Notes under the pieces: model-generated | The model's database searches: none | Told to the model about the DNA's origin: nothing | What the model saw: the letters and a program-made list of their open reading frames with translations, nothing else | Made by a program: the position numbers and the translations under genes | Source: Gammaproteobacteria bacterium | Lineage (GTDB): Bacteria > Pseudomonadota > Gammaproteobacteria > Steroidobacterales > Foliamicaceae | Direction: 5' to 3' | DNA: 64,000 bases | Assembly: GCA_009845905.1 (NCBI GenBank) | Contig: VXYS01000013.1 | Location: forward strand, 98,924-162,923 | Shown: positions 27,702-48,489 of the stretch, piece after piece | Position numbering within the stretch: the stretch's first letter is position 1 | Layout of the letters: each line of letters opens with the position of its first letter

Positions 27702-27711
27702 AATGCCTGTC

Positions 27712-33751: not shown

Positions 33752-34288
33752 TCAGGCTCCCCCCGCGGGACTCAACACGATCGCCGCCCGGATCTCGTCA
33801 AAAACCGAGTCAGCAAACCCGTGGATCTGCTCGGTGGTCCGGTTCAGTACCGGGTGAGGCGTATACACGGACGCGCCGTCAAAACCTATCTTCGAGCACT
33901 GTTGCTCGAACGCCTGCTTGAACGCGGTCGTCAGGACGCTGACGCCGGGAATACCCAGGTTGTCGAGATCATTCAGGTCATGGGTCGAACACGATGTGCA
34001 CGACCCGCAGTCAGAGAGAGCCAATACGACCACATCGGTTTCGGTGACGATGTCCTGGATTATCTCGGTGGGGGCCGTGCGCGTATTCGTCGGTTTCTTG
34101 TACCGTTTGGTGGAAACTTTCGACTCGGTGAACAATTGTTCGAGGCGATCGACGAATTCGTCTCCCCGCATCTTGCCGATATCGAGCAGGGCCACGGTCT
34201 TGCCATCCAGTGACGCGGGTGGCGGCTGCCGCGGCCTGTTCACGGCAGCCGATTCCGCCGTGGGGTCTCGCAGGGTAATCGCGCTCAC
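33752..34288 (-). CDS. UGSC-family (seleno)protein homolog, Cys variant (CGSC)
   Basis: About 178 aa with the motif LALSDCGSCTSCSTHD. I recall an NCBI family named for a U-G-S-C motif, and here the first position is Cys. I set the start at the GTG at 34288, which forms a GTGA overlap with the upstream stop. The track ORF to 34351 lies inside the upstream gene. Confidence 0.5.
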   Translation of the reverse strand: MSAITLRDPTAESAAVNRPRQPPPASLDGKTVALLDIGKMRGDEFVDRLEQLFTESKVSTKRYKKPTNTRTAPTEIIQDIVTETDVVVLALSDCGSCTSCSTHDLNDLDNLGIPGVSVLTTAFKQAFEQQCSKIGFDGASVYTPHPVLNRTTEQIHGFADSVFDEIRAAIVLSPAGGA

Positions 34289-35730: not shown

Positions 35731-35753
35731 TTTCAAGCGCCTTCAAAAAATAC

Positions 35754-35782: not shown

Positions 35783-35874
35783 CCCTGATGTCTACATGAG
35801 CGAGTGGCGACTCTTGGTTGTGTAGAGGGAAAACCGAACAATGGACCAGCCGCAGGTCCGAAGGAGAAATCCAC

Positions 35875-38871
35875 ATGAAAAATCAACTGAGATTCGCCCT
35901 GCCAATGCTCGCGCTGCTGGTGGCCAATCCCGCGATCGCTCAGGATGCTGCATCGGATGATGTGGACGGAAATGATGCGATCGTGGAGGAGGTGGTCGTT
36001 ACGGGTTCACGTATTGCCAGAAATCCGGCCGACGTCGCGGCGCCCTTGGTCTCGGTCGGTTCGGACGACGTACTTTATTCCAACACACCGGATCTGGGTC
36101 AATTTTTACAGGAATTGCCCCAGCTTTCCAGCTTCGGTGGGCGTCAGTCCATTTCGGCGGACGAACGCAACGGGTCAACCAGCAGTACAGGATTGAGTCG
36201 GGCCAATCTGCGCGGTCTGGGCACGTCTCGGACTCTGGTTCTGGTGAATGGCAAGCGGCATGTTTCCGGGGCTGCCGGCACCCAGGCAATCGACCTGTCG
36301 ACCATTCCTCCTATCCTGATCCGGTCGGTGGAGGTCATCACCGGCGGCGCATCCGCGGTTTACGGATCTGATGCGGTAACCGGTGTGGTGAACATCATCC
36401 TCGACGATGAACTGGAAGGCATTGTCTTTGACACCAACTACAACCGCCGATTCGAGAATTCCGCCGGCGAAAACTACCGGTTCGCCATTGCGGGCGGTTC
36501 GGAACTGGCGGACGGGCGCGGGCATATCACCGCGTCTGTCCAGTACGACCGGCAAAGCCTCATGTTGGCGCCCGATCAGCCATTCTCGAACAATTATCAG
36601 AGGGTGAACGTCACCGACGCCAATAACGTCAGGGGCGACGGCAATCCCGATCACGTGATATTGCCGAATGTAGCCGAAGACATCATAGGCCCCTTCAGTG
36701 TTTTCAACGTGTTCGGTGAATATGCCGCGGCATTGGGTGATACCGGGCGCTGGAGCTTTACCGAAGACGGCCGCGACATATTCAGATTGCCTGAACCTAT
36801 TGTCGCCGGGCGGTATCCGCGTCCCCAGAACCTTATTCTGGGTGACTTCGCCGAAATCACTCCCGCGCTTGGGCCGCGTGATCCGTACCTGACCATTATT
36901 CCCTCGGCCGAGCGATTCGTCAGTACTGCAAGCGTAAAGTTTGACGTGGGCGCCAGTTTTGAAGCTTATGCCGACACCAAGTACTCCAAGACTTCCGGCC
37001 GCGATGTCGATTTTCCCCGGCAAATCATTTTTGCGCGGATCAATGTTGCGGACAATCCCTACCTTCCGGAATCGGTTCGCGCCCGGTTCCTGGCCGGCGG
37101 GGTAGGGGAGGTTCGAATTCTGGACAACGTACTTGAGCTTGAAACTTCCGGGGAGTGGTATGACCGCCAGTCTTCAACCATCGTTGCCGGTCTTCGCGGC
37201 GACTTCGATGCAGGATTCTCCGCACTGACGCTTGACGCCTATGCGCAATACGGTTCAACCCGTAATGAGATTCGCCGGGCGCCGCAACGAATCACACCCA
37301 ACCTGGGCGCGGCCATCGATGCCGTAATCGATCCGGCCACGGGCAGGCCCGCGTGCCGCAGCCATGTGCCGTCCGCGCAGCCTGCCGGCTATCGCAGTCC
37401 GGCGAGTGTCGATGCCGGCAATTGCGCGCCCCTGAATCCGTTCGGCATTGGCCTCGTATCGCAGGAAGCGCTCGACTTCGTGTTCAAGCCGGCGACCAAC
37501 CTCCAGGAGGTCGACCAGGCCGTCCTGGGTCTTACGTTCACGGGCGACACCAATCGCTTTGCCAATCTTCCCGGCGGGCCGGTCTATTTTGCGGGCGGCG
37601 TCGAGTATCGGGACGAATCGGCCGCCTTTGACTGGGATACGCTCGAGGAACTCGGGGCTTTTGGAGGCCCCGCTTCGGATTCATCGGCCTCGTTCGATGT
37701 ATCCGAGGTTTTCGCCGAGGTGAGTGTGCCGGTGCTGGATACTCTGACGCTCGATGGAGCGGTCCGCTACGCGGACTACAGTCATGCCGGCGGAGCGACG
37801 GCCTGGAAGGTCAGCGGCAATTTCGCGCCCGTAGAGAGATTCGGTATCCGCGGCACGTACTCCGAGGCCGTGAGAGCGCCGAACCTGACGGAGGCCTTCT
37901 CGCCCGCGTCACAGATGAACTTCCTGCCCGACGACTTGTGCGACTTCGAGTTCCTGGCAAACGAAACGCAGACCGTTGCCAACAACTGCGCCGCCCTGGG
38001 TCTGGGCCCCGACTTCGATGCCTTTGACGGCTTGACGATTTTCGGATCGGTCAGCGGGAACGAGAATCTGACGCCCGAGGAGTCGGAAAGCTACACCTTC
38101 GGCGTTGTCTTCAGGCCATTCGAAGGCTGGGAATTCTCCATTGACTACTACTCGATCGAGATTACCGACGCGATCGCTTCCATTGGCGGGCAGGACATCG
38201 TCAATCTTTGTCTGCGCGACGAGACCGGAATCAACAACCAGTTCTGTGACCGTATTGCACGGAACCCGGGACCGGGCGATACGCCGCGCGGCGTTCCAGT
38301 CGGCGGCATTATCGACATCGCTTCCGGCTTCGTGAATGTCGCAGCGCTCGAGACCAGCGGTTTCGATGTCGCGGGTTCGTTTTTCGGGGACGCGAGCGAT
38401 CTGACATTCGGGATGCTCAAGACGGGCACGATGTCCTTCAACATCGTATATACCAATGTGGACGAGCTGTCGGAGTTCCCGTTCCAGAACGATCCGTCCA
38501 GGGAAGACGTCAAGGCCGGTGAGATTGGCCGTCCGAAGCATCAATTCAAGGCAGCTCTCGCATACAGCGGAGGCCTGTTTGATGTTCGGTGGGAATTGCT
38601 CTATATCGGCAATCAGGTAGCGAGGAACATTTCCTTCGACGAGCCCGACATTGTGTCGCCGGATGACACGGGCACGACCCTTTACAACGATGTGTTCGTT
38701 TCGAAGACTCTGGACTGGTTTGGGTCGGAAACCATGGTTTATGCAGGAATCAACAATCTGTTCGATGAGGAACCCCCCATAGCGGCGCTGGAACTCACCG
38801 CGCGGAACGAGGCTGCCAACTTTGATCAATACGGCCGCAACTACGTGCTCGGCGCCAGGGTCCAGTTCTAA
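35875..38871 (+). CDS. TonB-dependent outer-membrane receptor
   Basis: Start at the ATG at 35875 (MKNQLRFALPMLALLVANPAIAQD). It has a TonB-box/plug region EEVVVTGSRIARN and NLRGLGTSRTLVLVNGKR, a long beta-barrel, and a terminal ...YVLGARVQF. Confidence 0.9.
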   Translation: MKNQLRFALPMLALLVANPAIAQDAASDDVDGNDAIVEEVVVTGSRIARNPADVAAPLVSVGSDDVLYSNTPDLGQFLQELPQLSSFGGRQSISADERNGSTSSTGLSRANLRGLGTSRTLVLVNGKRHVSGAAGTQAIDLSTIPPILIRSVEVITGGASAVYGSDAVTGVVNIILDDELEGIVFDTNYNRRFENSAGENYRFAIAGGSELADGRGHITASVQYDRQSLMLAPDQPFSNNYQRVNVTDANNVRGDGNPDHVILPNVAEDIIGPFSVFNVFGEYAAALGDTGRWSFTEDGRDIFRLPEPIVAGRYPRPQNLILGDFAEITPALGPRDPYLTIIPSAERFVSTASVKFDVGASFEAYADTKYSKTSGRDVDFPRQIIFARINVADNPYLPESVRARFLAGGVGEVRILDNVLELETSGEWYDRQSSTIVAGLRGDFDAGFSALTLDAYAQYGSTRNEIRRAPQRITPNLGAAIDAVIDPATGRPACRSHVPSAQPAGYRSPASVDAGNCAPLNPFGIGLVSQEALDFVFKPATNLQEVDQAVLGLTFTGDTNRFANLPGGPVYFAGGVEYRDESAAFDWDTLEELGAFGGPASDSSASFDVSEVFAEVSVPVLDTLTLDGAVRYADYSHAGGATAWKVSGNFAPVERFGIRGTYSEAVRAPNLTEAFSPASQMNFLPDDLCDFEFLANETQTVANNCAALGLGPDFDAFDGLTIFGSVSGNENLTPEESESYTFGVVFRPFEGWEFSIDYYSIEITDAIASIGGQDIVNLCLRDETGINNQFCDRIARNPGPGDTPRGVPVGGIIDIASGFVNVAALETSGFDVAGSFFGDASDLTFGMLKTGTMSFNIVYTNVDELSEFPFQNDPSREDVKAGEIGRPKHQFKAALAYSGGLFDVRWELLYIGNQVARNISFDEPDIVSPDDTGTTLYNDVFVSKTLDWFGSETMVYAGINNLFDEEPPIAALELTARNEAANFDQYGRNYVLGARVQF

Positions 38872-39040: not shown

Positions 39041-41131
39041 GTGAAGATTTCATCAGGCATTTGCAGTAGTGCATTGCCGATACTGTTCGCGGCAGCGGCG
39101 GGACTGTCTGTTTCAGCCTGCGGCGAAGGCCGCGAATCGACTGCCCCGCTCGATGACCGGGATCCTTCAACGGTGGTCGACGGGAATTGGCCGAATACCG
39201 GACGAAATTTCAGCGAGGACCGGTTTTCCCCGCTGGATCAGATATCACACTCCAATGTCTCCGAATTGGGACTCGCCTGGCGCATGCCGGTCGCTACGGC
39301 AACGAACCTCAAGGGCACTCCGATCGCGGTGAACGGATCCCTTTTCGTCACCGACGGATGGGGTGTCGTGAGCAAGGTTGACGGCGCCTCCGGAGAGCTG
39401 ATCTGGAGATACGCCCCCGAGCCCGATCACAGTGCGGTGCGGGGAGCCTGCTGCACCGTCCTGAACAGGGGTCCCACGAGTTCGGACGGCAAGGTCTTCG
39501 CGGCCGCTTTCGATGGTCAGCTTTTCGCTCTGGACATGGAGAGCGGTGAGGAGATCTGGAAAGTGGACACGATAGACGGCGAAGGGCTCTATTCAAGCTC
39601 GGGGGCGCCGCGTATTGCCGGAGAAAACGTCCTTATCGGGAACGCCGGCGCCGAGTTCGCTGTCCGGGGTTATGTGTCGGCCTACAACAAGGACACGGGC
39701 GAACTGGCCTGGCGCTTTTACACGGTACCCGGGAACCCGGGAGACGGGTTCGAGAATGCCGCCATGGAAATGGCTGCCGGCACCTGGAACGGCGCCTGGT
39801 GGGAAAACGGCGGCGGTGGAACCGTCTGGGACTCCATGTCCTATGACCCGGAGCTGGATCTTGTCTACATCGGTGTGGGGAACGGGTCTCCATGGAATCG
39901 GGAGACCCGCAGCCCGGGTGGGGGCGACAATCTTTTCCTCTCGTCCATCGTTGCGCTCAATGCGACGACCGGGGACTACGTCTGGCACTACCAGACCACG
40001 CCAGGCGATTCCTGGGACTTTACCGCTACCTCGCCCATGGTCCTGACCGATATCGAGATTGATGGCCAGTTGCGCCAGGTCATCATGCAGTCGCCGAAAA
40101 ACGGCTTCTTTTATGTGCTGGATCGCCGTTCCGGCGAACTCCTGTCGGCGGACCCGATTGCCACCGTGAACTGGGCCTCGCATGTTGACATGGAGACCGG
40201 TCGCCCCGTCGAACACCCCAATGCAAGATTCATCGAAGAACCGTTCCTGGGCATCCCGGGGCCGAGTGGCCACCGGAATTGGCACGGCATGTCTTTTCAC
40301 CGGCCTTCCGGGCTGATGTTCATGGCGGTAAACGAAACGGCCTTCCTGTTTACCCAGACCGACGACATCGTTGAAGTGCAGGGCCGTTTCCGGCAGGACC
40401 TGGGATACAGGCCGTGGCAGGATCTGGCTTCGATCCTCGAGGAAAGGGGCGTGACGCTCGAGGGTCAATACCTGCTCGCCTGGGACCCGGTGGCCCGGAA
40501 AGAGGCCTGGCGGGCCAGCCGTAATCCGCCGCGCGGCGGCAGCGTTCTTTCAACCGCCGGAGAACTGGTGTTTCAGTCCGATCGATCCGGTGAGTTTGCG
40601 GCCTACCATGCAAGGACGGGCGAAAGGCTTTGGTCGGCCTCCCTCAACACGGGCGCCGTCGGCGGGCCGATTTCCTATGAGGTGGACGGTCGGCAATACA
40701 TAGCCATTCTTGGGGGCCATGCGCATCCAGGCTACAACATGGCTAGAAACGCGGCCCTGTTCGCTTTCAGCTTGGGCGGCGACCGCCCCTTGCCTGCAAG
40801 AATCGAATGGCCGGTGGACAACTATGAAGCGGTGACCCTTACCGCGGAGCAGTCAGCAATGGTTGGACTTGGCGACAGGCTGTACCATGCGCACTGCCTG
40901 CATTGCCACGGTCCGAATGCCGCAAGTGGCGGCAATGTTTCCGACCTGAGGTACTCGCACATTTCAATCTTTGACATCTGGACGGAAATTGTCCTTGACG
41001 GGACGCTTGAATCCAACGGAATGCCCGCGCATGCCGATGTTCTGACGCAGGAAGAGTCCGACGCAATCAAGTACTACGTCCAGGATCAAGCCAACCTCAG
41101 AAAAGTTGCCCTTTCCGGCGCCGACGACTGA
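39041..41131 (+). CDS. Quinohemoprotein alcohol dehydrogenase (PQQ propeller plus C-terminal cytochrome c), lipoprotein-type leader
   Basis: GTG start with leader ...AAAGLSVSAC (a lipobox-like sequence). PQQ-ADH features include the vicinal-Cys VRGACCTVLNRG and repeated W-motifs. The C-terminal heme site is CLHCHG with the downstream Met region SNGMPAH. Confidence 0.88.
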   Translation: MKISSGICSSALPILFAAAAGLSVSACGEGRESTAPLDDRDPSTVVDGNWPNTGRNFSEDRFSPLDQISHSNVSELGLAWRMPVATATNLKGTPIAVNGSLFVTDGWGVVSKVDGASGELIWRYAPEPDHSAVRGACCTVLNRGPTSSDGKVFAAAFDGQLFALDMESGEEIWKVDTIDGEGLYSSSGAPRIAGENVLIGNAGAEFAVRGYVSAYNKDTGELAWRFYTVPGNPGDGFENAAMEMAAGTWNGAWWENGGGGTVWDSMSYDPELDLVYIGVGNGSPWNRETRSPGGGDNLFLSSIVALNATTGDYVWHYQTTPGDSWDFTATSPMVLTDIEIDGQLRQVIMQSPKNGFFYVLDRRSGELLSADPIATVNWASHVDMETGRPVEHPNARFIEEPFLGIPGPSGHRNWHGMSFHRPSGLMFMAVNETAFLFTQTDDIVEVQGRFRQDLGYRPWQDLASILEERGVTLEGQYLLAWDPVARKEAWRASRNPPRGGSVLSTAGELVFQSDRSGEFAAYHARTGERLWSASLNTGAVGGPISYEVDGRQYIAILGGHAHPGYNMARNAALFAFSLGGDRPLPARIEWPVDNYEAVTLTAEQSAMVGLGDRLYHAHCLHCHGPNAASGGNVSDLRYSHISIFDIWTEIVLDGTLESNGMPAHADVLTQEESDAIKYYVQDQANLRKVALSGADD

Positions 41132-41184
41132 TCTTCAGTTCGGTAATACCCTGAACGGGCCGCATTGGCCGGATGGGGGCGGTC

Positions 41185-42747
41185 TCAATGAAGGCTTTTC
41201 AACGGCCTTGTAAGCGGCAGTACCCGGGCGGGATTGCCCGTCATGATGTCGTTAATTTGAGCTTCCGTCATCCCCTGGTCGCGGAAATAAGGCAACAGCA
41301 CCGTATGCACATATTTCAGTCCGAAGCCCCCGAACCGGGTCAGCTGAAATTTCGTACACATGTCATGCGACACCAGGATCTGTTTTGAGTAGCCCTTTGC
41401 CACGAGCGAAAGAATGGCTTCGGCGCCACGCAGATCATTCATGCTCAACTGCCAGGGGTTTCCGAACACGTCAAACTGAAGAAAGACTCCCCGCTGCAAC
41501 AGACCCTCAAGAAATGTAAGGTCCGCCACCGCCGCGTTCGATATGTGGCCCAGGATGACGCGGGAAAGGTCCGCGCCATCTCTTTCGAGCAGGTCGAGGG
41601 CCAGCGTGAGTTTTGACATATCGTAAAAATCGCTGTGAATCGAAATGGCCGCGCCCGTCCATGAACTGGCCATCGCCGCCGCCCTAAGTACTTTCGATTC
41701 ACCCGTTACGGGCTCTGCGGAAGTGATTTTCTCTATCGGTATTTCGCCGATGATTCCCGCCTTTACCGTCGTGCCATTCACGCCGACGGTGATGTCCTCA
41801 TACATCCGCAGGGCCAGATCACGGACGCTCATGTCCATCAGCGTTACGGGATGCCAGGCGGTTCGGTAATAGCCGGTGCCCATCACAATCCGGACTCCCG
41901 TGCGCTCCGATACCTCTCTCAATTTTTCCGGTTGCCTGTTGAGTCCGATGGACGTGACGTCAACAATCGCGCCTCCCCCAAGCTCACGAAAATCGGACAC
42001 CTCATCCAGTGCGTCCTGCAGGCTGTCCAGAGTGAAGGCATCCCTGTTGGCCCACAGGCGAGCGGCCATCCCGGCGCGGTTGTGCATGGTCAAGGGCTGT
42101 CTCCATGCATTCAATTCCTCGGGAGAATTGGGCGGAGTCCGGCCGAATAGCTGGTTCCAGCGGGCCGGCTCATCGGCAGGCAACCAGAAGTCGATGAACA
42201 GATGCTCATGCATCAGTGTTTCGCCCAGCCGGTCGGGCTCTATGGCGCCCGTGACCGTGAGCACCTTGCCGATGTAATCAGGGCCGGGAGCGTTGTCAAT
42301 CTTGAGTATCAGTTTCCGACGAACTTCCGCGGCGCGGGTCATGAGAGGTTTCTCACGCAGACGGCCGACCTCCTTCTCGTCATATGGAGAAAAAGAGTCG
42401 GGGATGTTTTCCTTGTCGAACTTCCTGAGCATCCAGTTCAACAGTTCCGCCACCTCGGAATCGGAGAGACTGGCAAAGGCGACGCCGGGCACGCGAACCA
42501 GGTATTGCCGCCCGCCTTCCACCTTGAGGAAGCGGGACACCTGGCCCGCCATGTTCGGCGCGCCACCTTCGGTTCCCTCGGCATTCGTCCCGTGGCAACC
42601 TCTGCAACTCATGGTCCAGTTGAGTTCCGCGCCGGACAGGGCCGGTGCATTTTCAGGATCGGGAGGTTCCGAGGCGTTGCCGCCCACGGACAGCAGCAGC
42701 CCCGAAACGCAGACGGCGAGAAAGCGCACAGCCGGGGCCGCCGCCAC
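41185..42747 (-). CDS. Periplasmic monoheme cytochrome c fused to a phosphotriesterase-family (PTE/PHP amidohydrolase) domain
   Basis: Signal-like N-terminus (AAAPAVRFLAVCVSGLLLSVGG) and heme motif CRGCHG with APNMAG. The PTE metal-ligand set follows: LMHEHL, VKAGIIGEI, ISIHS, ILGHIS and VSHDM. The start is uncertain: GTG at 42747 touches the mauA-like stop, GTG at 42729 is an alternative, and the track start at 42822 lies inside the upstream gene. Confidence 0.7.
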   Translation of the reverse strand: MAAAPAVRFLAVCVSGLLLSVGGNASEPPDPENAPALSGAELNWTMSCRGCHGTNAEGTEGGAPNMAGQVSRFLKVEGGRQYLVRVPGVAFASLSDSEVAELLNWMLRKFDKENIPDSFSPYDEKEVGRLREKPLMTRAAEVRRKLILKIDNAPGPDYIGKVLTVTGAIEPDRLGETLMHEHLFIDFWLPADEPARWNQLFGRTPPNSPEELNAWRQPLTMHNRAGMAARLWANRDAFTLDSLQDALDEVSDFRELGGGAIVDVTSIGLNRQPEKLREVSERTGVRIVMGTGYYRTAWHPVTLMDMSVRDLALRMYEDITVGVNGTTVKAGIIGEIPIEKITSAEPVTGESKVLRAAAMASSWTGAAISIHSDFYDMSKLTLALDLLERDGADLSRVILGHISNAAVADLTFLEGLLQRGVFLQFDVFGNPWQLSMNDLRGAEAILSLVAKGYSKQILVSHDMCTKFQLTRFGGFGLKYVHTVLLPYFRDQGMTEAQINDIMTGNPARVLPLTRPLKSLH

Positions 42748-43304
42748 TACTTTTGCTGGACGGCTATGCCGACGACATTCGAGGTCGAGCAGGTAAACGT
42801 CGTTTCCCCGGAGCCCATGCACCAGAGGTAGGCCCGGCTCGACTGCGACCTGATCGGGGGCTTCGCATTGGGATCATGCGGAGAACACAAACATCTCTTG
42901 CACGTGGGTTTCCCGCAACAATCGTTGTAGGAAATGATGTAGTAGACGTCGTCGGCAGGATTGAGGCACGTTCCGATCCAGGAGAGCGGTGACATGACGG
43001 TCCCCGGCGGGCAGGCATTTGCGCTGCCTCCGCAACATGCGCATAGCGGTCCGCCGATGCCGCAGTAACGCCAGTAGTCGCAGCTCGTCTGGCTTCCCTC
43101 TTCCCCGTCACTCACCGGCGGCCTGGGGGCAACCCCTTCATAGCCCCCGGGCTCCTGGTCGGCATGGACCCTGGCCACAGGCAAAAGGGGCAGGGCGGCG
43201 CCGCCCACGAGCAGCGAACCCAGGCCGCCAAGCAGGCTGCGCCGGGAGGTGCGTTGCGCCAGTTGCCGTGTTATTTTTTCCGACAGCTTCTCTACAAACG
43301 ACAT
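42747..43304 (-). CDS. mauA: TTQ-dependent amine dehydrogenase light (small) subunit, MauA/AauA family
   Basis: Long Tat-type leader (...QRTSRRSLLGGLGSLLVGGAALPLLPV). The mature part aligns motif by motif with methylamine dehydrogenase light chains: CDYWRYC, LCACCGG, CPPGT, LSW, CLNP.D, YIISYNDCCG, RCLC, LWCMG and FTCS. Confidence 0.85.
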   Translation of the reverse strand: MSFVEKLSEKITRQLAQRTSRRSLLGGLGSLLVGGAALPLLPVARVHADQEPGGYEGVAPRPPVSDGEEGSQTSCDYWRYCGIGGPLCACCGGSANACPPGTVMSPLSWIGTCLNPADDVYYIISYNDCCGKPTCKRCLCSPHDPNAKPPIRSQSSRAYLWCMGSGETTFTCSTSNVVGIAVQQK

Positions 43305-43341
43305 ATGCCCCTCCCGGGCCGAAAGTGATTGCGGGACCCGG

Positions 43342-43992
43342 TCATTGAGGCCGCACGTTGGCGCTATCGGGCGCCTTGATGCCGAAATCGACCAGTTCCA
43401 GGTGTTCCTGTATGGTCGAGACCTTCATCACTTGCGTTTCGATCAGACTCTCCAGGTGCTCGCGCGAATTTGTCAGCCCCAGTCCGCTGATTCGACCGTC
43501 GTCATCGATGAGTACCGCGAACGGCAGTTGACTGACCCCGAACTCAATACCGAGCGACTGCGACAAGACGTACGGGTAACTGCCGATCCTGTGCCTGTCG
43601 ATAAACTCGACGTGCGCGTCGCGCGATTCGCCATCGCTGGCGAACACAAGGTCAAGCCAGCCACGCTCCCTGGCCGCGATTGACTTGATGGCCGGCAGCA
43701 GGGTCTTGCAGATCGGACACCCGGGAGCGAGGAAAAATATCAGCTGCGCCTTGTCTTTGCTGGCGGCATCGGCGGGTTTGCCGATTTCGATTTTTCCTCC
43801 GTCGATCGTGTCCAGACGCATCGTCGGAGCGACATCGCCGCCGGCCAGCTTCCTGTTCATCGCGAGCGCGCCCACCGGTGCGATTCGCTCGAACAGGACC
43901 CCAACCTGACGCGCAAGGGCAAAGGCAATGACGCCGAGCGCCAATACCAGGATCCAGAGGATCAGATTGGAAACTACGAGAAAACTGGTCAT
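43342..43992 (-). CDS. mauD: MauD-like thiol-disulfide oxidoreductase (membrane-anchored redoxin)
   Basis: Start at the ATG at 43992, giving an ATGA overlap with the mauE-like stop. It has an N-terminal TM helix and a thioredoxin-fold motif FLAPGCPICK. Its position between mauE and mauA matches known clusters. Confidence 0.8.
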   Translation of the reverse strand: MTSFLVVSNLILWILVLALGVIAFALARQVGVLFERIAPVGALAMNRKLAGGDVAPTMRLDTIDGGKIEIGKPADAASKDKAQLIFFLAPGCPICKTLLPAIKSIAARERGWLDLVFASDGESRDAHVEFIDRHRIGSYPYVLSQSLGIEFGVSQLPFAVLIDDDGRISGLGLTNSREHLESLIETQVMKVSTIQEHLELVDFGIKAPDSANVRPQ

Positions 43993-44558
43993 GCTGTTGA
44001 GTTCGGGGTCAGATAACTTCTGTTCGCAAGCAACGTATCGACCAGGACATACAGCATACCGGCGGCCAGTACCATCAACGGCAGATGGAGCCAATCAATG
44101 GTTTGCAGCTCACGCGCGGTGACGGGCAGCACGCCGGCCAGACAAATCAGGATCAGGACGCCATTCCGGCAGAGATGCCAGGCCGAGATCAGTGATCGTT
44201 GCTTCCGAAAGGAGCAACCGCAGTCTATTTCTCGATTTCCTCTTGCAAGAGAGTAAGCCATCAACAACAGGTACGCGAACAGGAGCGCCGCGCCCGCAGC
44301 AAATCCACCCATTCCGAGAATCCGCAATTGCGGGAACAGGAGAGACGTCAAGAGCGCGAGTCCGATAGTCGTCTCAACCGCCACGACCAGGCCCGCGGCG
44401 AGGGCAAGCAGATTCGGACGAACGACGTCATATTTCCCCAGCAGCGAAACAAATCGTTCAAAATCCCTGAACTTGTGGAACCCGCCGGACAGGAAAAATC
44501 CCGCCAGGAAAAGAGCGATAAGCCAATGCGCCAGCGGATCGATCATGGGCCAGCTCAT
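43989..44558 (-). CDS. mauE: MauE-like integral membrane protein (amine dehydrogenase maturation)
   Basis: Start at the ATG at 44558, giving an ATGA overlap with the mauB-like stop. It has about 4-5 TM helices, with GGFHKFRDFERFVSLLGKYDVV and a CGC motif (EIDCGCSF). Confidence 0.75.
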   Translation of the reverse strand: MSWPMIDPLAHWLIALFLAGFFLSGGFHKFRDFERFVSLLGKYDVVRPNLLALAAGLVVAVETTIGLALLTSLLFPQLRILGMGGFAAGAALLFAYLLLMAYSLARGNREIDCGCSFRKQRSLISAWHLCRNGVLILICLAGVLPVTARELQTIDWLHLPLMVLAAGMLYVLVDTLLANRSYLTPNSTA

Positions 44559-45709
44559 TTGTTGGTGTGGATCAGCTGAAACGTCGTCGCGTCTTCCCAC
44601 CAGCCTCCTATCTCCTGGATGAATTCTCCGGTTTTCGCTTCATAAACGCCGAATCCATTTCCGGAAAGCAATACCAGGTGGGGGCTGTCTCCCCCCGTGA
44701 CTGCAAGCGCGGATGCGTCCTTGCGTAACCCGATGCGCCCGACGCGCTTTCGGGCTGCCGGATCGAACGACCAGACTTCGGATGTGCCCCCGATGCGCGC
44801 GCCGTCTTCTTCAACCCTGTGCATCAGCACGTAGAGAGTTCCGGAGCGGTCGACATCAACCGTTTCACGCCTTACGGGCCGCCAGCGGTCCTGCTCTTCT
44901 TCGTCGCTGATCAGGCTCCAGTCCGGAAGAACTACCGGCTTGGCGCCTGACAGATCGACCGGTTGCAACCTGCCGAACTGAGTCGGGAAATAAAAAATCT
45001 GATCGAAGACGCCCGGTGTCATGTACATGGCATCGTTATCGATATCGTTGAACGGATCGGTCAGCCCCTCTTCAATCACGTCGCCGGACGCATTCAAGGT
45101 GAAGTGGGCCAGGGATCCGTCGCCGCACAGCGTGAAGAAACTCTGGTCCGCATACGGATAGATGAAAGTGCAGCCCGGAATCTGGACTTCACCCGCAACA
45201 ATCCTTTGTTCCATGTCGACGACCGTGACGGATGCGGCGGGCGTGAAGTTGTAGAGAAGCAGGAATCGCTCATTGCCGGTCAGGCGCGTCATCGCGGTTC
45301 GGGGGCTCATGAATGCCCGCTTGTTGCCGGGCAGCGGGACCTTGCCGATTGCCTGCAGGTTTGCCTGTTCGTATATCGTCACCAGATCGCTGCGCCGACC
45401 GTAGCCCACGTTTTCGTAGTAGCTCTCGGCAACGTAGAGCTCGGCGCGTTTTTTCGACCAGGCAAGGCCTGCGAACTGCGCCCCCTGAAACTGGCCTTTC
45501 ACCTGATCGGTTTTCGCGGCAACGTCTATGATGATGTAGCCGCCCAGCACCATCGTCGGATAGTTGAAGTCCTGAACGATGACCCAGCTTTCGGGATATT
45601 CCCCGGGGAGCGTGCGCGAATTGGGAATGGTGTCCAGAGGAACCTGCGCCAAGGCGCCGGCCGAAAAAATCGACAGCATCAGCAGGGAGGACAGTACGGC
45701 CAGGAACAC
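44555..45709 (-). CDS. mauB: TTQ amine dehydrogenase heavy (large) subunit, MauB/AauB family beta-propeller
   Basis: 384 aa with a signal peptide (FLAVLSSLLMLSIFSAGALA). It is collinear with methylamine dehydrogenase heavy chains (ELYVAESYY...RRSDLVTIY, FLLLYNFTPAASVTVVD, CGDGSL, LYVLMH) and sits first in a B-E-D-A gene order. Confidence 0.8.
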   Translation of the reverse strand: MFLAVLSSLLMLSIFSAGALAQVPLDTIPNSRTLPGEYPESWVIVQDFNYPTMVLGGYIIIDVAAKTDQVKGQFQGAQFAGLAWSKKRAELYVAESYYENVGYGRRSDLVTIYEQANLQAIGKVPLPGNKRAFMSPRTAMTRLTGNERFLLLYNFTPAASVTVVDMEQRIVAGEVQIPGCTFIYPYADQSFFTLCGDGSLAHFTLNASGDVIEEGLTDPFNDIDNDAMYMTPGVFDQIFYFPTQFGRLQPVDLSGAKPVVLPDWSLISDEEEQDRWRPVRRETVDVDRSGTLYVLMHRVEEDGARIGGTSEVWSFDPAARKRVGRIGLRKDASALAVTGGDSPHLVLLSGNGFGVYEAKTGEFIQEIGGWWEDATTFQLIHTNK

Positions 45710-45772
45710 GGGAACTTGCAGCCTTGGAGGAAAGATATACTAATATACTCGGGCGGGAAGGGGTAGTTCATC

Positions 45773-46267
45773 ATGCACGTGAAAACAGGATACCTGACCT
45801 TACTCGGGGCTCTTCACCTGTTGTTTCCGTTGCAGCCCTCATATGCACAGTCACTGCGCCCGACACTGGATTCCGATGCGGCGCAGACCATCATTGAAGC
45901 GTGCAAGCGGAAAGCCCTGGAAAACGACTGGAAAATGGCGATCGCCATTTACGACGACAGGGCGACTCTCCTGGCTTTCCTGAGGATGGACGGCGTCAAG
46001 ACCGGCAACGTCAGGATCGCGCTTCTCAAGGCGGAGGCAGCGGCAAGCTATGGCCGGCCGACGAAACTGTGGGCCGAGCGCGCGGAGAAGAATCCCGCTT
46101 ACCTGGGGCTGCCCGCCTTTCCCGGATTCGGCGGAGGGGAAGCCATTTTTGCGAGCGATGGGACGTTGCTGGGCGGGGTCGGTGTATCCGGTTCGTCGGA
46201 CAGCAACGACGCCGCCTGTGCGCAGGCAGGTATTCTGGCGGCTGAATTGCAATTCCAGACAAATTGA
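45773..46267 (+). CDS. Secreted GlcG/HbpS-like (DUF336) putative heme-binding protein
   Basis: Signal peptide LLGALHLLFPLQPSYAQS, then a DUF336 core (AIAIYDDRATLLAFLRMDG...ALLKAEAAASYGRPT...GGVGVSGSSDSNDAACAQAG). Confidence 0.7.
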   Translation: MHVKTGYLTLLGALHLLFPLQPSYAQSLRPTLDSDAAQTIIEACKRKALENDWKMAIAIYDDRATLLAFLRMDGVKTGNVRIALLKAEAAASYGRPTKLWAERAEKNPAYLGLPAFPGFGGGEAIFASDGTLLGGVGVSGSSDSNDAACAQAGILAAELQFQTN

Positions 46268-46309
46268 GATAATTGTCGGCTGAATGACGTTATCGACGGA
46301 ACTTAGGGT

Positions 46310-47029
46310 GTGAATCGAACGAATTTAAACATTCTGGACATGAAAGTGGCGCCGCTGAGGGTGAAGGTGGCGCATATGCTCCGTGAGGAGATCACCTCGG
46401 GGCGACTTCCGCTTGGATCTCAGATTTCCGAGCAAAGCATAGCGGAAGACCTGCAGATCAGCCGGACTCCCGTACGGGAAGCGATCATGTCGCTTGCCGT
46501 CGAGGGGCTCGTGGATGTCAGGCCCCAGTCCGGCACCTACGTTTTTGGCCCCGACCCCGATGAAATCGTGTCGATCTGCCAGATGCGTCTCGTGTTGGAA
46601 TCGGCGGCTCTCAAGATTCTGGCGAAATCCGACCACAAGGAAATTTTCGTTCAGACATTGGTCGACAACGTGAGACAGGCCGCCAAGGCGCTCAGCGTCA
46701 ATCTCGAAGAGTGTCATCAACTGGACACCGCTTTTCACCGCGCACTGATCGAGGCGAGCGAGAATCCTTTCCTTATTCAGTCCTATCACGGCATTTCCAA
46801 CAGATTGCATGCTCTAAGGCAACTGTTGCCGTTCACGAAGACCCGGTTGAATGCCGCGCTGAAACAGCATCGTCAATTGATTGCGGCCATCAAGCAAAAC
46901 GACATAAAGGGCGCGCAGTCGATTATTGAAGAGCATATTGCCAACGTCGAGGCCATGCTCCTTGAAAGGCTCGACAAGCCCAGGGGCAGTCACACGGTGA
47001 TTCGCTCGCGCGGTTCCAAGCGCGCTTAG
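46310..47029 (+). CDS. GntR-family transcriptional regulator (FadR/FCD subfamily)
   Basis: N-terminal winged HTH (GSQISEQSIAEDLQISRTPVREAIMSLAVEGLVDVRPQSGTYV) and a C-terminal all-helical FCD-like domain. It has a GTG start. Confidence 0.85.
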   Translation: MNRTNLNILDMKVAPLRVKVAHMLREEITSGRLPLGSQISEQSIAEDLQISRTPVREAIMSLAVEGLVDVRPQSGTYVFGPDPDEIVSICQMRLVLESAALKILAKSDHKEIFVQTLVDNVRQAAKALSVNLEECHQLDTAFHRALIEASENPFLIQSYHGISNRLHALRQLLPFTKTRLNAALKQHRQLIAAIKQNDIKGAQSIIEEHIANVEAMLLERLDKPRGSHTVIRSRGSKRA

Positions 47030-47076: not shown

Positions 47077-48489
47077 CTATCTGGGCGTCGGATGGGCAAC
47101 CCCGCCCTTGATCACCATTTCGATCGAGCAGAGCGCATCGATGTCTTTCGTCGGGTCCGTCGAGGTGGCGATAACGTCTGCGTAGTATCCCTCCTGGATT
47201 CTGCCGATTTGGTCCGCCATGCCCAGATTCTCCGCGGCATTGACCAGAGAGGCCAGCAAGGCCTCCTCGTTGGAAAGACCGGCTTCCACCAGCAGGCCGA
47301 ACTCTCCGCAGTTCTTGCCGTGACCGTCCATGCCGGAATCCGAACCCAGGGCAATCCTTATTCCCGCTTCGTGCGCCTTGCGGGTTGCCGTGAGCATCTG
47401 AGGACCCACGACAAGGGCCTTTTCCTTTTGAGCTGCGGGAAGGGGAGAATCCTCCAGTTCCGCCCAGCGCGAAATGGTATCGCCCGCCAGAAGCGTCGGG
47501 ACCAGAAAGGCGCCACTCTCCCTGAAGCGAAGAATGCTGCTTTCGTCCAGAAAAGTGCCGTGCTCTATGGAATCGGCGCCCGCGTCCAAAGCGGCATTGA
47601 TTCCGTCCAGGCCGTGGGCATGGGCCGCAACCCTTCGCCCCAGGGAATGGGCGGTATCGACTATTGATTCCAGCTCCGCGCTTGTGAACTGTTGACCTAC
47701 GCCGGCGCTGGCTGCGCTGAGAACGCCTCCTGTGGATGTCAACTTGATGGCTTCCGCCGAGTCTCTGATTTGCCGTCGCACGGCCTTGGCGCACTCGTCC
47801 GCACCGTCGCACACGCCGGAAGGAGTAAAAAATTCGAAAAGTCCGTGCCGAAACCCGGTACTCCTGTCAATATGTCCGCCTGTCGGGGTAATGGTCTGCC
47901 CCGACGCCAGGATTCTTGGACCGGCAACGTCACCGCGGCTGATTCCATCACGCAGCGCATATATCGAATCGGGTCCCCGGGCGCCCAGGTCGCGAACCGT
48001 AGTAAACCCGGCCAAAAGAGTCCTCTTGGCGGCCGCCGCGCCAAGAATGGCGCGGTCCGCGTCCGAAAGAACCACAAAGCCCAGGCGCCTGTTACCTACC
48101 GGCAGCGCGGTGAGATGGACATGTCCGTCTATCAGCCCTGGAAGAACGTAACTGTCCTTGAGATCAATCAGTGTCGCGGAGCTCGAATCCTCAAACCCCA
48201 ACTCCCCGGGGGTGGGAAAACCATCCTCCACTCGCGCGACCTTGTCCCCGACGATCACGATCGTCCTGGATTTGGTGGATTCCAGGGCCCCGTCGACGGG
48301 AGTTATCAAGGTGCCCGCATGGATAATGGCGACATTCTCGGCAGGGACGGGATTGCCCACCAGCAGAAACACCAACCCGACTATCAAACACCGTGCCCTC
48401 CGTGCCTGAACGGCCACGGAATTACCGGCCAGAGACGGGGTATGCAGGAGAATTCTGGCTTCCGGCTGACTCAAGATCATTGTTCCCAC
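47077..48489 (-). CDS. Amidohydrolase-superfamily metallohydrolase (imidazolonepropionase/Xaa-Pro-dipeptidase-like), probably exported
   Basis: It has a hydrophobic leader (CLIVGLVFLLVGNPVPAEN), the motif PGLIDGHVHL, a later AHAHG, and IEHGTF. The start is uncertain. Confidence 0.7.
   Translation of the reverse strand: MGTMILSQPEARILLHTPSLAGNSVAVQARRARCLIVGLVFLLVGNPVPAENVAIIHAGTLITPVDGALESTKSRTIVIVGDKVARVEDGFPTPGELGFEDSSSATLIDLKDSYVLPGLIDGHVHLTALPVGNRRLGFVVLSDADRAILGAAAAKRTLLAGFTTVRDLGARGPDSIYALRDGISRGDVAGPRILASGQTITPTGGHIDRSTGFRHGLFEFFTPSGVCDGADECAKAVRRQIRDSAEAIKLTSTGGVLSAASAGVGQQFTSAELESIVDTAHSLGRRVAAHAHGLDGINAALDAGADSIEHGTFLDESSILRFRESGAFLVPTLLAGDTISRWAELEDSPLPAAQKEKALVVGPQMLTATRKAHEAGIRIALGSDSGMDGHGKNCGEFGLLVEAGLSNEEALLASLVNAAENLGMADQIGRIQEGYYADVIATSTDPTKDIDALCSIEMVIKGGVAHPTPR

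What the first reader, a model, noticed from the sequence alone, without database searches (positions are those of the whole stretch)
41185..42747. Periplasmic cytochrome c fused to a phosphotriesterase-family binuclear-metal hydrolase
One ORF carries three parts. The first is a hydrophobic leader. The second is a class-I-like cytochrome c module of about 120 aa (CRGCHG, a candidate Met ligand in APNMAG, and the typical LSDSEVAELLNWML helix). The third is a complete PTE/PHP amidohydrolase domain with every metal ligand in order: HxH in LMHEHL, the carboxylated-Lys position in VKAGIIGEI, His in ISIHS, His in ILGHIS and Asp in VSHDM. PTE-family proteins that I know of are stand-alone enzymes without redox domains. 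A heme-tethered, exported version coupled to a TTQ dehydrogenase light-chain gene is an architecture I cannot place. One idea is that the cytochrome domain accepts electrons from the TTQ subunit. The hydrolase domain could then unmask or process the substrate or product, for example a lactone, lactam or ester derivative of an amine. Both ideas are inference.
Basis: partly seen in the sequence, partly recalled or inferred. Interest (0 to 1): 0.72.

Follow-up and report, generated by a model that had tools for sequence, protein, structure and literature searches.

The report
Cytochrome c fused to exported hydrolase
The gene is real: in some sponge-associated bacteria a 128-base deletion joined two neighbouring genes, a small cytochrome c that always follows a quinone-cofactor amine dehydrogenase and an exported metal-dependent hydrolase, so the fusion is a recent local oddity, though the cytochrome family is uncharacterised and unusual.

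Summary
Window 41185-42747 (minus strand) is one 520-aa ORF. It has a Sec-type leader, a c-type cytochrome module (C48-x-x-C51-H52) and a complete phosphotriesterase-family (PF02126) domain (E 3e-61).

It is not an assembly artefact. The same fused gene occurs in at least five other assemblies, including a 2.83-Mb chromosome. Both halves are under purifying selection (dN/dS 0.10-0.26).

The fusion is young and narrow. Relatives of similar divergence (cluster DNA 78-96% identical) carry the same cluster with two separate genes. A 128-nt deletion removed the cytochrome's stop codon and the hydrolase's signal peptide.

The cytochrome belongs to a large family of ~150-aa stand-alone proteins. In 74 of 74 testable genomes it lies directly downstream of a TTQ (tryptophan tryptophylquinone) dehydrogenase light-chain gene.

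The hydrolase is PTER/Rsp3690-like. Its bridging metal ligand is a Glu, not a carboxylated Lys. It recurs next to PQQ (pyrroloquinoline quinone) and TTQ dehydrogenases in four other gene contexts.

Best reading: an electron-acceptor cytochrome and a pathway hydrolase, tethered incidentally. The substrate is unknown. Interest is moderate.

The parts
41185..42747 (-). Fused ORF of 520 aa (stop codon 41185-41187): leader, cytochrome c module, short linker, PTE-family hydrolase. An alternative GTG start lies at 42729.
   Evidence: ORF list and sequence. Pfam PTE E 3.2e-61 and Cytochrom_C E 7.7e-5. The same fused ORF occurs in L001-L004, L012 and L013.
42673..42747 (-). Sec-type signal peptide, residues 1-25 (Arg8, hydrophobic FLAVCVSGLLLSV, GNA|SE).
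   Evidence: Read from the translation. Stand-alone relatives of the cytochrome carry equivalent leaders. No predictor was run.
42304..42672 (-). Cytochrome c module, residues 26-148. It is Thermus-c552-like but lacks the Met-ligand loop, and it belongs to the TTQ-operon cytochrome family.
   Evidence: PDB sequence match to 1C52/2FWL at E 1.6e-12, with the region between query residues 86 and 90 left unaligned. AF2 pLDDT 94.9. Foldseek TM 0.67-0.68 to 1C52/1DT1. Family alignment A3.
42592..42606 (-). Haem attachment motif C48-R-G-C51-H52.
   Evidence: Invariant in 93 of 93 relatives. It is one of only two CxxCH motifs in ORFs of at least 80 aa in the whole window.
42475..42495 (-). Family signature RVPGVAF. 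It replaces the roughly 20-residue loop that carries Met69 in Thermus c552, and Ala sits where the Met ligand would be.
   Evidence: HMMER alignment to 1C52. P62 and G63 of the 130-aa alignment query (Pro87 and Gly88 of the protein) are invariant, and no Met/His/Lys/Tyr column is invariant.
42268..42303 (-). Fusion junction and linker, residues 149-160 (IDNAPGPDYIGK). The deletion breakpoint lies between 42299 and 42298.
   Evidence: DNA alignment against unfused L006/L007/L005. Exact count of 128 nt missing, with 2-nt AT microhomology. pLDDT below 50 for residues 144-158 in the full-length model.
41188..42267 (-). PTE-family binuclear-metal hydrolase domain, residues 161-520. Ligands: H180, H182, E335 (bridging), H371, H401, D462.
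   Evidence: Pfam. PDB sequence matches 3K2G at E 3.4e-54, 9EFA at 2.9e-45 and 1BF6 at 2e-34, with ligand columns shown aligned for 3K2G and 9EFA. Model pLDDT 80-95. Foldseek 9EFA TMt 0.86 and 3K2G 0.85. Residue coordinates.
42747..43304 (-). TTQ dehydrogenase light chain (185 aa). Its stop TAG overlaps the GTG of the fused ORF by one base.
   Evidence: Pfam Me-amine-dh_L at E 8e-38. For the mature protein, aromatic amine dehydrogenase (AADH) 2AGL_D scores E 3e-34 against 1e-25 for methylamine dehydrogenase (MADH); the top hit overall is the 3C75 MADH precursor, E 2.1e-40, whose alignment includes the leader. Both TTQ Trp contexts (SWIGTC, LWCMG) are kept.
43342..44094 (-). MauD-like thioredoxin-fold accessory protein. 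The true start is probably later, because relatives are called at 216 aa.
   Evidence: NCBIfam TIGR02661 at E 2e-49. Gene calls in L001.
43989..44600 (-). MauE-like membrane accessory protein.
   Evidence: Pfam MauE at E 1.5e-20.
44555..45709 (-). TTQ dehydrogenase heavy chain (384 aa).
   Evidence: Pfam Me-amine-dh_H at E 2e-31. It is closer to AADH (E 3e-32) than to MADH (E 2e-24).
39041..41131 (+). PQQ-dependent dehydrogenase with a C-terminal cytochrome c domain (quinohaemoprotein), convergent with the fused ORF.
   Evidence: Pfam PQQ at E 4e-75 plus Cytochrome_CBB3. NCBIfam TIGR03075 at 521.9 bits, above its cut-off. It is adjacent to PTE homologues in L009, L022, L092 and L093.
35818..38871 (+). 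TonB-dependent outer-membrane receptor of the same conserved cluster.
   Evidence: Conserved next to the cluster in L001, L005, L006, L012 and L013. TonB receptors also flank PTE homologues in L092, L096 and L097.

Best explanation
The ORF is a recent natural gene fusion.

Ancestral state. In the ancestral operon, still present in relatives of similar divergence, the order is TTQ dehydrogenase heavy chain, MauE, MauD, light chain, then a roughly 150-aa periplasmic monohaem cytochrome c, then a roughly 410-aa exported PTE-family hydrolase with its own signal peptide.

The fusion event (shown). One 128-nt deletion with 2-nt microhomology removed the last two codons and stop of the cytochrome gene and the first 41 codons of the hydrolase gene, which encode its signal peptide. 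This placed the mature hydrolase in frame behind the cytochrome. The single remaining leader now exports both modules.

Expected biogenesis (inferred). Haem would be attached in the periplasm to C48/C51/H52. The hydrolase would fold there around a binuclear metal site (H180, H182, E335, H371, H401, D462), as its stand-alone exported relatives must.

Likely functions (inferred):
- The cytochrome module is the dedicated redox partner of the aromatic-amine-dehydrogenase-like TTQ enzyme. It occupies the operon position that amicyanin holds in classical methylamine clusters, and it may also serve the neighbouring PQQ quinohaemoprotein.
- The hydrolase module cleaves an ester, lactone or amide bond of a compound imported through the TonB-dependent receptor. 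This step comes before or after oxidation by the two quinoprotein dehydrogenases.
- The two modules probably work independently. The fusion tethers them and guarantees equal dosage, without creating a new catalytic mechanism.
For: The fusion is real and maintained:
- The fused ORF is present in the window, L001-L004, L012 and L013 (a 2.83-Mb chromosome).
- Cluster DNA identity to the window is 97%, 96% and 91.5% for L001, L012 and L013.
- There are no indels over 491 codons, and dN/dS is 0.10-0.26 in each domain.

Origin by deletion:
- L006, L007 and L008 carry the same cluster with separate genes of 151 aa and 408-412 aa.
- P0002 is an unfused hydrolase, 88% identical, with its own leader.
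- L005/L014 is also unfused.
- The breakpoint was aligned and counted.

The cytochrome belongs to the TTQ enzyme:
- In 74 of 74 species-level genome loci with at least 1.5 kb upstream, a TTQ light-chain gene lies directly upstream on the same strand. Heavy chain is present in 68 and MauD in 69.
- No cupredoxin-sized unassigned ORF lies inside the cluster.

The hydrolase belongs to the pathway:
- PTE homologues of about 50% identity sit beside PQQ quinohaemoprotein genes in L009, L022, L092 and L093.
- They sit beside TTQ genes plus this cytochrome in L022 and L092, in a different gene order.

The hydrolase looks competent:
- All ligand columns align with 3K2G and 9EFA.
- The fold matches PTER and Rsp3690 at TMt 0.85-0.86.
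- Rsp3690 and Pmi1525 are reported as metal-stimulated esterases (PMC5341072). PTER is an N-acyl-amine amidohydrolase (PMC11374699, PMC12873775).

Independent modules: linker residues 144-158 have pLDDT below 50.
Against: - No experiment bears on any step.
- The cytochrome has no conserved sixth haem ligand, which is unusual for a simple electron carrier.
- A. faecalis aromatic amine dehydrogenase is known to use azurin (my recollection, not tested here), so a cytochrome acceptor is not established for this enzyme class.
- In L009 the cytochrome sits with the hydrolase and a PQQ dehydrogenase, with no TTQ gene in the 1.27 kb available upstream. Its partner may therefore not be exclusively the TTQ enzyme.
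- The hydrolase substrate is unknown. The PTER residues that hold taurine and protonate the leaving amine are not conserved: Arg209 is Phe, Arg238 is Asn and His305 is Cys464 (with PMC12873775).
- Hydrolase relatives at 43-47% identity are not linked to quinoproteins at all.
- The interdomain arrangement could not be assessed, because no PAE output or multimer prediction was available.
Confidence: 0.6

Rival explanations
1. The cytochrome module is not mainly an electron acceptor. It is a haem protein needed to make the TTQ cofactor, a functional substitute for the dihaem enzyme MauG in MauG-less operons. It would act alone or with the canonical c552-like cytochrome that precedes it in many operons.
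For: - 79 of 80 operons carrying this cytochrome have no ORF with two CxxCH motifs within 10 kb either side, and the 64-kb window has none.
- The Met-ligand loop is deleted, and no replacement ligand is conserved in 93 sequences. This is compatible with an open or five-coordinate, reactive haem.
- 45 of 74 operons carry a second gene of about 0.5 kb between the light chain and this cytochrome. In the one read in full (L011) it is a canonical Met-loop cytochrome.
- Some proteins fuse the two kinds (P0122). That gives a two-haem system loosely analogous to MauG.
Against: - MauG could be encoded elsewhere in these genomes; only 20 kb per genome was seen.
- A class I monohaem cytochrome is not known to perform such chemistry.
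- The window's own operon lacks the second cytochrome.
- Operon position immediately after the light chain fits an electron acceptor equally well.
- L009 has the cytochrome with no TTQ genes in view.
Confidence: 0.12
2. The fusion creates a real functional coupling. The hydrolase and cytochrome act as one unit docked on the TTQ or PQQ dehydrogenase, so that substrate unmasking or product hydrolysis is channelled to the oxidation step.
For: - Both modules are kept under purifying selection in the fused state across about 8.5% nucleotide divergence.
- Hydrolase, TTQ enzyme, cytochrome and PQQ enzyme co-occur repeatedly.
- The linker is short, about 12 residues.
Against: - Relatives of similar divergence with the same cluster do without the fusion.
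- The event is a single deletion with no further adaptation visible at the junction.
- The linker is predicted to be flexible, and no confident interdomain packing was obtained.
- The fusion is confined to one narrow clade.
Confidence: 0.15
3. The single ORF is a sequencing or assembly artefact, or a decaying pseudogene, that merely joins two genes.
For: - Related loci do show decay or errors.
- L005/L014 needs one extra A in a homopolymer for a proper hydrolase start, and it lacks MauE/MauD.
- L098 has lost the TTQ genes and keeps only a cytochrome remnant.
Against: - The same breakpoint and frame occur in six independent assemblies from different samples and assemblers, including a chromosome-level one.
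- The deletion is 128 nt, not a one-base slip.
- dN/dS is 0.10-0.26 and there are no indels.
- All catalytic and haem-binding residues are intact.
Confidence: 0.02

Closest known systems
Aromatic amine dehydrogenase operon of Alcaligenes faecalis (aauBEDA followed by orf-2, described as a small periplasmic monohaem cytochrome c; no mauG in the cluster). This is recalled from Chistoserdov 2001, Microbiology 147:2195. I could not retrieve it in the paper library.
   Same: - The gene order is the same: heavy chain, MauE, MauD, light chain, then a small c-type cytochrome.
- No MauG lies nearby.
- Both subunits are closer to solved AADH than to methylamine dehydrogenase.
   Different: - Here the cytochrome is fused to a hydrolase.
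- The cluster also holds a PQQ quinohaemoprotein and a TonB-dependent receptor.
- Whether A. faecalis orf-2 belongs to the Met-less cytochrome family was not tested.
Thermus thermophilus cytochrome c552 (PDB 1C52, 1DT1)
   Same: - It is the best sequence match (E 1.6e-12) and the best fold match (TM 0.67-0.68).
- It shares CxxCH, the GGR-YL motif, the LNxx helix and the C-terminal F-x-P-[FY]...E...LR extension.
   Different: - The roughly 20-residue loop that carries the Met69 ligand is missing.
- An Ala sits at the Met position, and no other ligand is conserved.
- Biologically, c552 feeds the ba3 oxidase, whereas this family is tied to TTQ operons.
Amicyanin (mauC) of classical methylamine dehydrogenase clusters
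   Same: It holds the operon position directly after the light-chain gene, and the presumed role is first electron acceptor of a TTQ enzyme.
   Different: Amicyanin is a cupredoxin, whereas this is a haem protein with no sequence or fold relation. The role here is inferred from gene context only.
PTER (N-acetyltaurine amidohydrolase, PDB 9EFA) and Rsp3690 (PDB 3K2G) / Pmi1525 (3RHG), the PTER-like branch of the phosphotriesterase family
   Same: - These are the best structural and sequence matches.
- They share the N-terminal insertion after the HxH motif and the GIIGEI/GLIGEI motif that carries the bridging Glu.
- The oxyanion Tyr in GTGYY is conserved.
   Different: - This protein is exported rather than cytosolic.
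- The PTER taurine-binding Arg209 and Arg238 and the acid His305 are replaced by Phe, Asn and Cys464 (with PMC12873775).
- The substrate is therefore different and unknown.
Periplasmic 'dehydrogenase + hydrolase + cytochrome c' operons such as the polyvinyl-alcohol operon of Sphingopyxis (PQQ quinohaemoprotein PVA dehydrogenase, oxidised-PVA hydrolase, cytochrome c). This is from my recollection and was not checked.
   Same: The logic is the same: a quinoprotein oxidation and a hydrolytic step carried out in the periplasm, with a dedicated cytochrome c.
   Different: The hydrolase family is different (serine hydrolase against binuclear-metal PTE). There is no TTQ enzyme and no fusion.

Membership tests
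Phosphotriesterase family (PF02126, amidohydrolase superfamily) | The profile HMM match is above the curated threshold over the full domain. | tested here: met
   207.8 bits against a cut-off of 22.4, profile positions 1-297 of 298.
Phosphotriesterase family (PF02126, amidohydrolase superfamily) | A complete binuclear metal ligand set is present: HxH, a bridging carboxylate or carbamate, two His and an Asp. | tested here: met
   H180/H182, E335, H371, H401 and D462 align with the equivalent columns of 3K2G and 9EFA. The bridging residue is Glu, not carboxylated Lys.
Phosphotriesterase family (PF02126, amidohydrolase superfamily) | The domain has the (beta/alpha)8 barrel fold. | tested here: met
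   Model pLDDT is 80-95 over the domain. Foldseek gives 9EFA TMt 0.86, 3K2G 0.85 and 1BF6 0.89.
Phosphotriesterase family (PF02126, amidohydrolase superfamily) | The protein has metal-dependent hydrolytic activity. | not testable with these tools
   This needs the expressed protein.
PTER-type N-acetyltaurine amidohydrolase | The substrate-binding and leaving-group residues are present: Arg209, Arg238 and His305 of the crystallised PTER. | tested here: not met
   The aligned residues are Phe, Asn and Cys464. Only the oxyanion Tyr (GTGYY) is kept (alignment read against PMC12873775).
Class I c-type cytochrome (Thermus c552 type) | A CxxCH haem attachment motif sits behind an export signal. | tested here: met
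   C48-R-G-C51-H52 is invariant in 93 of 93 relatives. The leader was read by eye.
Class I c-type cytochrome (Thermus c552 type) | The module has the class I fold. | tested here: met
   pLDDT 94.9. Foldseek top hits are 1QYZ, 1DT1 and 1C52 at TM 0.67-0.68, probability 1.00.
Class I c-type cytochrome (Thermus c552 type) | A conserved Met is the sixth haem ligand. | tested here: not met
   The Met69 loop of c552 is absent and Ala occupies that position. No invariant Met/His/Lys/Tyr/Cys exists outside CxxCH.
TTQ-operon cytochrome c family (defined here by context) | The gene lies directly downstream of a TTQ light-chain gene on the same strand. | tested here: met
   This holds in the window and in 74 of 74 genome loci with enough upstream sequence.
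MauG / bacterial dihaem peroxidase | The protein has two CxxCH motifs in a roughly 350-400-aa CCP_MauG fold. | tested here: not met
   There is one CxxCH, no CCP_MauG Pfam hit, and the fold is c552-like.
Amicyanin / cupredoxin electron acceptor | The protein has a cupredoxin fold and a type 1 copper site. | tested here: not met
   There is no cupredoxin Pfam hit in the ORF or its cluster neighbours, and the fold is an all-alpha cytochrome.
TTQ amine dehydrogenase (neighbouring genes) | The light chain keeps both TTQ tryptophans, and a heavy-chain propeller and MauE/MauD accessory genes are present. | tested here: met
   Pfam and NCBIfam hits. The SWIGTC and LWCMG contexts align with AADH and MADH. 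The NCBIfam equivalog cut-offs for methylamine dehydrogenase are NOT reached (148 against 196.85; 118 against 454), so it is not an orthologue of MADH proper.

The most novel reading that the evidence does not exclude
The Met-less c552-like cytochrome, whether free-standing or fused as here, may be the missing haem factor that completes TTQ biogenesis in the large group of aromatic-amine-dehydrogenase-like operons with no MauG nearby. It could also serve as the enzyme's electron acceptor. The fused hydrolase would then be an incidental passenger. The evidence does not exclude this: the cytochrome is 74 of 74 linked to light-chain genes, has no conserved distal haem ligand, often pairs with a second, canonical cytochrome, and MauG is absent locally in 79 of 80 operons.
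Probability: 0.12. Interest if true: 0.8.

Novelty: new variant of a known kind. Interest (0 to 1): 0.42.

Why it matters
- The fusion is a dated, clean example of how a bifunctional exported protein arises. One deletion removes a stop codon and the downstream signal peptide, and the product is then maintained by selection. This acts as a 'Rosetta stone' link between an exported PTE-family hydrolase and periplasmic quinoprotein oxidation.
- The cytochrome half is the more useful lead. It identifies an uncharacterised, widespread cytochrome c family (over 1,200 representatives at E<=1e-3) that is strictly tied to TTQ dehydrogenase operons and lacks the usual Met ligand.
- That family gives testable candidates for two open questions. 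The first is the natural electron acceptor of aromatic-amine-type TTQ enzymes that have no cupredoxin gene nearby. The second is how TTQ is matured where MauG is not encoded in the cluster.
- The cluster may also define an amine, ester or amide catabolic route in sponge symbionts.

Tried and rejected
- Frameshift or assembly artefact: rejected.
- Met66 of APNMAG as haem ligand: rejected on conservation.
- Lys of VKAG as carboxylated bridging ligand: rejected, because it is Arg in both solved relatives.
- Orthology to PTER N-acetyltaurine hydrolase: rejected on active-site residues (PMC12873775).
- A second, independent cytochrome-hydrolase fusion in L098: rejected. That locus is a decayed cluster with a cytochrome remnant and a separate hydrolase carrying its own leader.
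- Exact-pattern scan of metagenome contigs for the region upstream of the junction: no hits.
- Mixed alignments of many cytochrome and hydrolase relatives misaligned (A2, A6). The full-length model therefore used a shallow alignment, and its cytochrome half is unreliable.
- Promoter and terminator scan of 40900-46400: nothing above chance.
- Literature searches for the A. faecalis aau cluster returned nothing usable. That comparison rests on memory.
- The first related-loci run with the 93-sequence alignment failed for lack of a conserved stretch. It was repeated with 22 sequences.
Full report
**1. What is in the sequence**

On the minus strand, 41185-42747 is one uninterrupted ORF of 520 codons. 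Its GTG start overlaps the TAG stop of the upstream gene by one base (TAGTG).

Pfam finds two domains:
- A full-length phosphotriesterase-family domain at residues 169-510, E 3.2e-61.
- The haem-binding end of a cytochrome c at residues 39-75, E 7.7e-5, just above the curated cut-off.

NCBIfam gives only sub-threshold matches to named PTE-family equivalogs.

The upstream genes on the same strand are a TTQ (tryptophan tryptophylquinone) dehydrogenase light chain, a MauD-like protein, a MauE-like protein and a TTQ dehydrogenase heavy chain. A PQQ (pyrroloquinoline quinone) dehydrogenase with a C-terminal cytochrome c domain converges on the ORF from the other strand, and a TonB-dependent receptor follows it.

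Only two CxxCH motifs occur in ORFs of at least 80 aa in the whole 64-kb window, one in this ORF and one in the PQQ enzyme. The window therefore encodes no dihaem MauG-like protein.

**2. Is the single ORF real?**

Yes. A search of 5.8 billion protein clusters returned one full-length relative, P0001 (95% identity, 519 aa). All other hits covered only the hydrolase part.
- P0001 is encoded in the same gene cluster on contigs from several sponge metagenome samples and a MAG (L001-L004).
- A scan of one genome per species found two more fused copies. L012 is Gammaproteobacteria bacterium COS2_bin_9. L013 is OZ220729.1, a 2.83-Mb chromosome.
- The whole cluster is 97%, 96% and 91.5% identical in DNA to the window in L001, L012 and L013.
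- The four fused alleles have identical length over 491 aligned codons.
- Pairwise dN/dS is 0.13-0.26 for the cytochrome part and 0.10-0.16 for the hydrolase part.

This pattern indicates a maintained, functional gene, not an artefact or a pseudogene.

**3. How the fusion arose**

Other relatives of similar divergence carry the same cluster with two genes.
- L006, L007 and L008 have a 151-aa cytochrome (P0271, 92% identical) followed by a 408-412-aa hydrolase.
- P0002 (88% identical) is a stand-alone hydrolase with its own leader.
- L005/L014 (Candidatus Azophilus sp., about 80% identical) has a cytochrome gene ending in TAG, an intergenic stretch, and a hydrolase whose N-terminus reads as a lipoprotein signal peptide if one A is added to a homopolymer.

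Aligning the DNA shows that the fused alleles lack exactly 128 nt present in L006/L007, with a 2-nt AT microhomology at the breakpoint.
- The lost segment holds the last two codons and TGA of the cytochrome gene.
- It also holds the overlapping ATG and the first 41 codons of the hydrolase gene, which encode its signal peptide MSRRMHHPDRNGDSDTGVFGIFIACVLVHCLAAGTATADDD.
- The two genes were in different frames, so a 128-nt loss joins them in frame.
- In the window the breakpoint lies between 42299 and 42298.

L006/L007 are 91.4% identical to the window on the TTQ side of the breakpoint and 96.2% on the hydrolase side. This suggests recombination among these lineages.

No fused copy was found in the metagenome contig collection. 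The one locus that looked like a second fusion (L098) is a decayed cluster. There the TTQ genes and most of the cytochrome gene are gone, and the hydrolase keeps its own leader.

**4. The cytochrome module**

Searched alone against 1.84 billion representatives, it has 1,271 relatives at E<=1e-3.
- Most of the best 150 are proteins of about 110-200 aa.
- About 20 are proteins of 250-374 aa that match in two or three stretches.
- None is longer than 374 aa.

Its closest solved relative is Thermus thermophilus cytochrome c552 (E 1.6e-12). A model built with 93 relatives has pLDDT 94.9, and its best fold matches are c552 structures at TM 0.67-0.68.

The HMMER alignment to c552 breaks between query residues 86 and 90. 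The c552 stretch left out is the loop carrying its Met69 ligand (ligand identity from my knowledge of 1C52). The family instead has the conserved motif RVPGVAF, with Ala at the Met position.

In the 93-sequence alignment, the invariant residues (numbered in the 130-aa alignment query) are C23, G25, C26, H27, P39, R55, P62, G63, N79, R106 and R118. No Met, His, Lys, Tyr or Cys column is invariant outside CxxCH. The sixth ligand is therefore unexplained.

**5. What the cytochrome goes with**

The genome scan found 311 relatives of the cytochrome and kept the best 80 loci. Of these, 74 have at least 1.5 kb of sequence upstream.
- All 74 have a TTQ light-chain gene directly upstream on the same strand.
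- MauD is present in 69 and a heavy chain in 68.
- In 29 loci the cytochrome follows the light chain directly, as in the window.
- In 45 loci a gene of about 0.5 kb intervenes. In the one read in full (L011) it is a canonical c552-like cytochrome that does have the Met loop.
- Some proteins, such as P0122, fuse a canonical domain to a Met-less one.
- Only one of the 80 loci has an ORF with two CxxCH motifs within 10 kb.

The TTQ subunits here are closer to solved aromatic amine dehydrogenase than to methylamine dehydrogenase:
- Heavy chain: E 3e-32 against 2e-24.
- Mature light chain: E 3e-34 against 1e-25.
- Both fall below the NCBIfam equivalog cut-offs for methylamine dehydrogenase.

As I recall it, this matches the A. 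faecalis aauBEDA-orf2 arrangement, in which orf-2 is a small monohaem cytochrome and mauG is absent. I could not retrieve that paper.

**6. The hydrolase module**

The best solved relatives by sequence are Rsp3690 (3K2G, E 3.4e-54), PTER (9EFA, E 2.9e-45), Pmi1525 and E. coli PHP. By fold, PTER scores TMt 0.86 and Rsp3690 0.85.

All metal ligands align: H180, H182, E335, H371, H401 and D462. The bridging ligand is the Glu of GIIGEI, not a carboxylated Lys.

Rsp3690 and Pmi1525 are reported as metal-stimulated esterases (PMC5341072). PTER hydrolyses N-acetyltaurine (PMC11374699).

Read against the PTER crystal-structure paper (PMC12873775), the oxyanion Tyr is kept. The two Arg residues that hold the sulfonate and the His proposed to protonate the leaving amine are Phe, Asn and Cys464 here. 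The substrate is therefore different.

Stand-alone relatives of about 50% identity all carry signal peptides, so this is an exported branch of the family. They recur beside quinoprotein genes:
- L009: cytochrome, unknown gene, hydrolase, transporter, PQQ dehydrogenase.
- L022: PQQ dehydrogenase, heavy chain, MauE, MauD, light chain, cytochrome, hydrolase.
- L092: TonB receptor, hydrolase, heavy chain, MauD, light chain, cytochrome, with a PQQ quinohaemoprotein nearby.
- L093/L094: two hydrolases next to a PQQ quinohaemoprotein and three tannases.

Relatives at 43-47% identity instead sit with TonB receptors, S15 peptidases and other amidohydrolases, without quinoproteins.

**7. Mechanism**

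Shown:
- One leader, one haem-attachment motif and a complete binuclear-metal hydrolase lie in one polypeptide.
- The fusion was created by a single deletion and is maintained by selection.

Inferred from gene context:
- The cytochrome is the redox partner of the TTQ enzyme, and possibly also of the PQQ enzyme.
- The hydrolase acts in the same periplasmic pathway on a compound taken up through the TonB-dependent receptor.

Inferred from chemistry only, with no direct evidence, either of two routes is possible:
- The hydrolase frees an amine or alcohol from an amide or ester, which the quinoproteins then oxidise.
- It opens a lactone that forms after oxidation of a hydroxy-aldehyde or lactol.

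The full-length model gives a confident hydrolase domain and a low-confidence linker at residues 144-158. Its cytochrome half is unreliable because the mixed alignment was shallow. I therefore make no claim about domain packing. I consider the modules independent and the tether incidental, at about 60% confidence for the whole account.

**8. Novelty and score**

Each domain belongs to a known family, and the operon type resembles a described one. The domain architecture appears undescribed and is confined to a narrow clade of sponge-associated Gammaproteobacteria. It is a new variant of a known kind.

It is a large, unannotated cytochrome c family strictly tied to TTQ operons, without the usual Met ligand, in operons with no MauG nearby. 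Overall interest is 0.42.

Noticed in passing
L011 7510-8004 and the gene of about 0.5 kb between the light chain and the cytochrome in 45 of 74 genome loci (L015-L091): Many TTQ operons carry two c552-like cytochromes in tandem: a canonical one with the Met loop, then the Met-less one. Some proteins (P0122, 285 aa) fuse the two kinds.
   Followed up: partly
L012-L091, 10 kb either side of the cytochrome: Only 1 of 80 TTQ operons of this type (L066) has an ORF with two CxxCH motifs nearby. MauG is therefore not encoded locally in this large group of TTQ dehydrogenase operons.
   Followed up: partly
L005 / L014 7357-10909 (Candidatus Azophilus sp., OZ244892.1): The heavy- and light-chain genes are adjacent with no MauE or MauD between them. 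The hydrolase gene needs one extra A in a homopolymer near 9737 to gain a start and a lipoprotein signal peptide. This is either decay or a long-read indel error.
   Followed up: partly
L098 2425-3115 (MDTE01179083.1): This is a decayed version of the cluster. The amidohydrolase and GntR genes are followed directly by a short cytochrome remnant (ADLLNWMLSKFDKK) and an intact hydrolase with its own leader. The TTQ genes are gone.
   Followed up: yes
window 42299 boundary, compared with L006/L007: The unfused relatives are 91.4% identical to the window on the TTQ/cytochrome side of the breakpoint but 96.2% identical on the hydrolase/PQQ/TonB side. This suggests recombination within the cluster.
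   Followed up: no
window 34285-35736 (-): A 483-aa ORF with no Pfam match lies next to the TonB-dependent receptor. It is conserved at that position (481 aa) in L001, L002, L005 and L006.
   Followed up: no
window 45773-46267 (+), 46310-47029 (+), 47077-48489 (-): An HbpS-like/GlcG-type protein lies divergent from the heavy-chain gene, next to a GntR/FCD regulator and a 470-aa Amidohydro_1 protein with a hydrophobic N-terminus. The regulator and amidohydrolase are conserved with the cluster in all sponge-symbiont relatives, and the HbpS-like gene in all but L005/L014. They are likely part of the same pathway.
   Followed up: partly
L001-L003 1-1004, compared with window 51691-53328: In L001-L003 a phage-type integrase and a PIN-domain gene lie just beyond the cluster's alcohol dehydrogenase and aminotransferase genes. 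The window has a MurJ flippase gene in that region instead, so the flank differs between strains.
   Followed up: no
window 20842-23778 (+) and 27679-29721 (+): There is a 978-aa prolyl oligopeptidase with a roughly 300-aa N-terminal extension that has no Pfam match. There is also a DUF3604 protein (E 3e-145). Neither was examined further.
   Followed up: no
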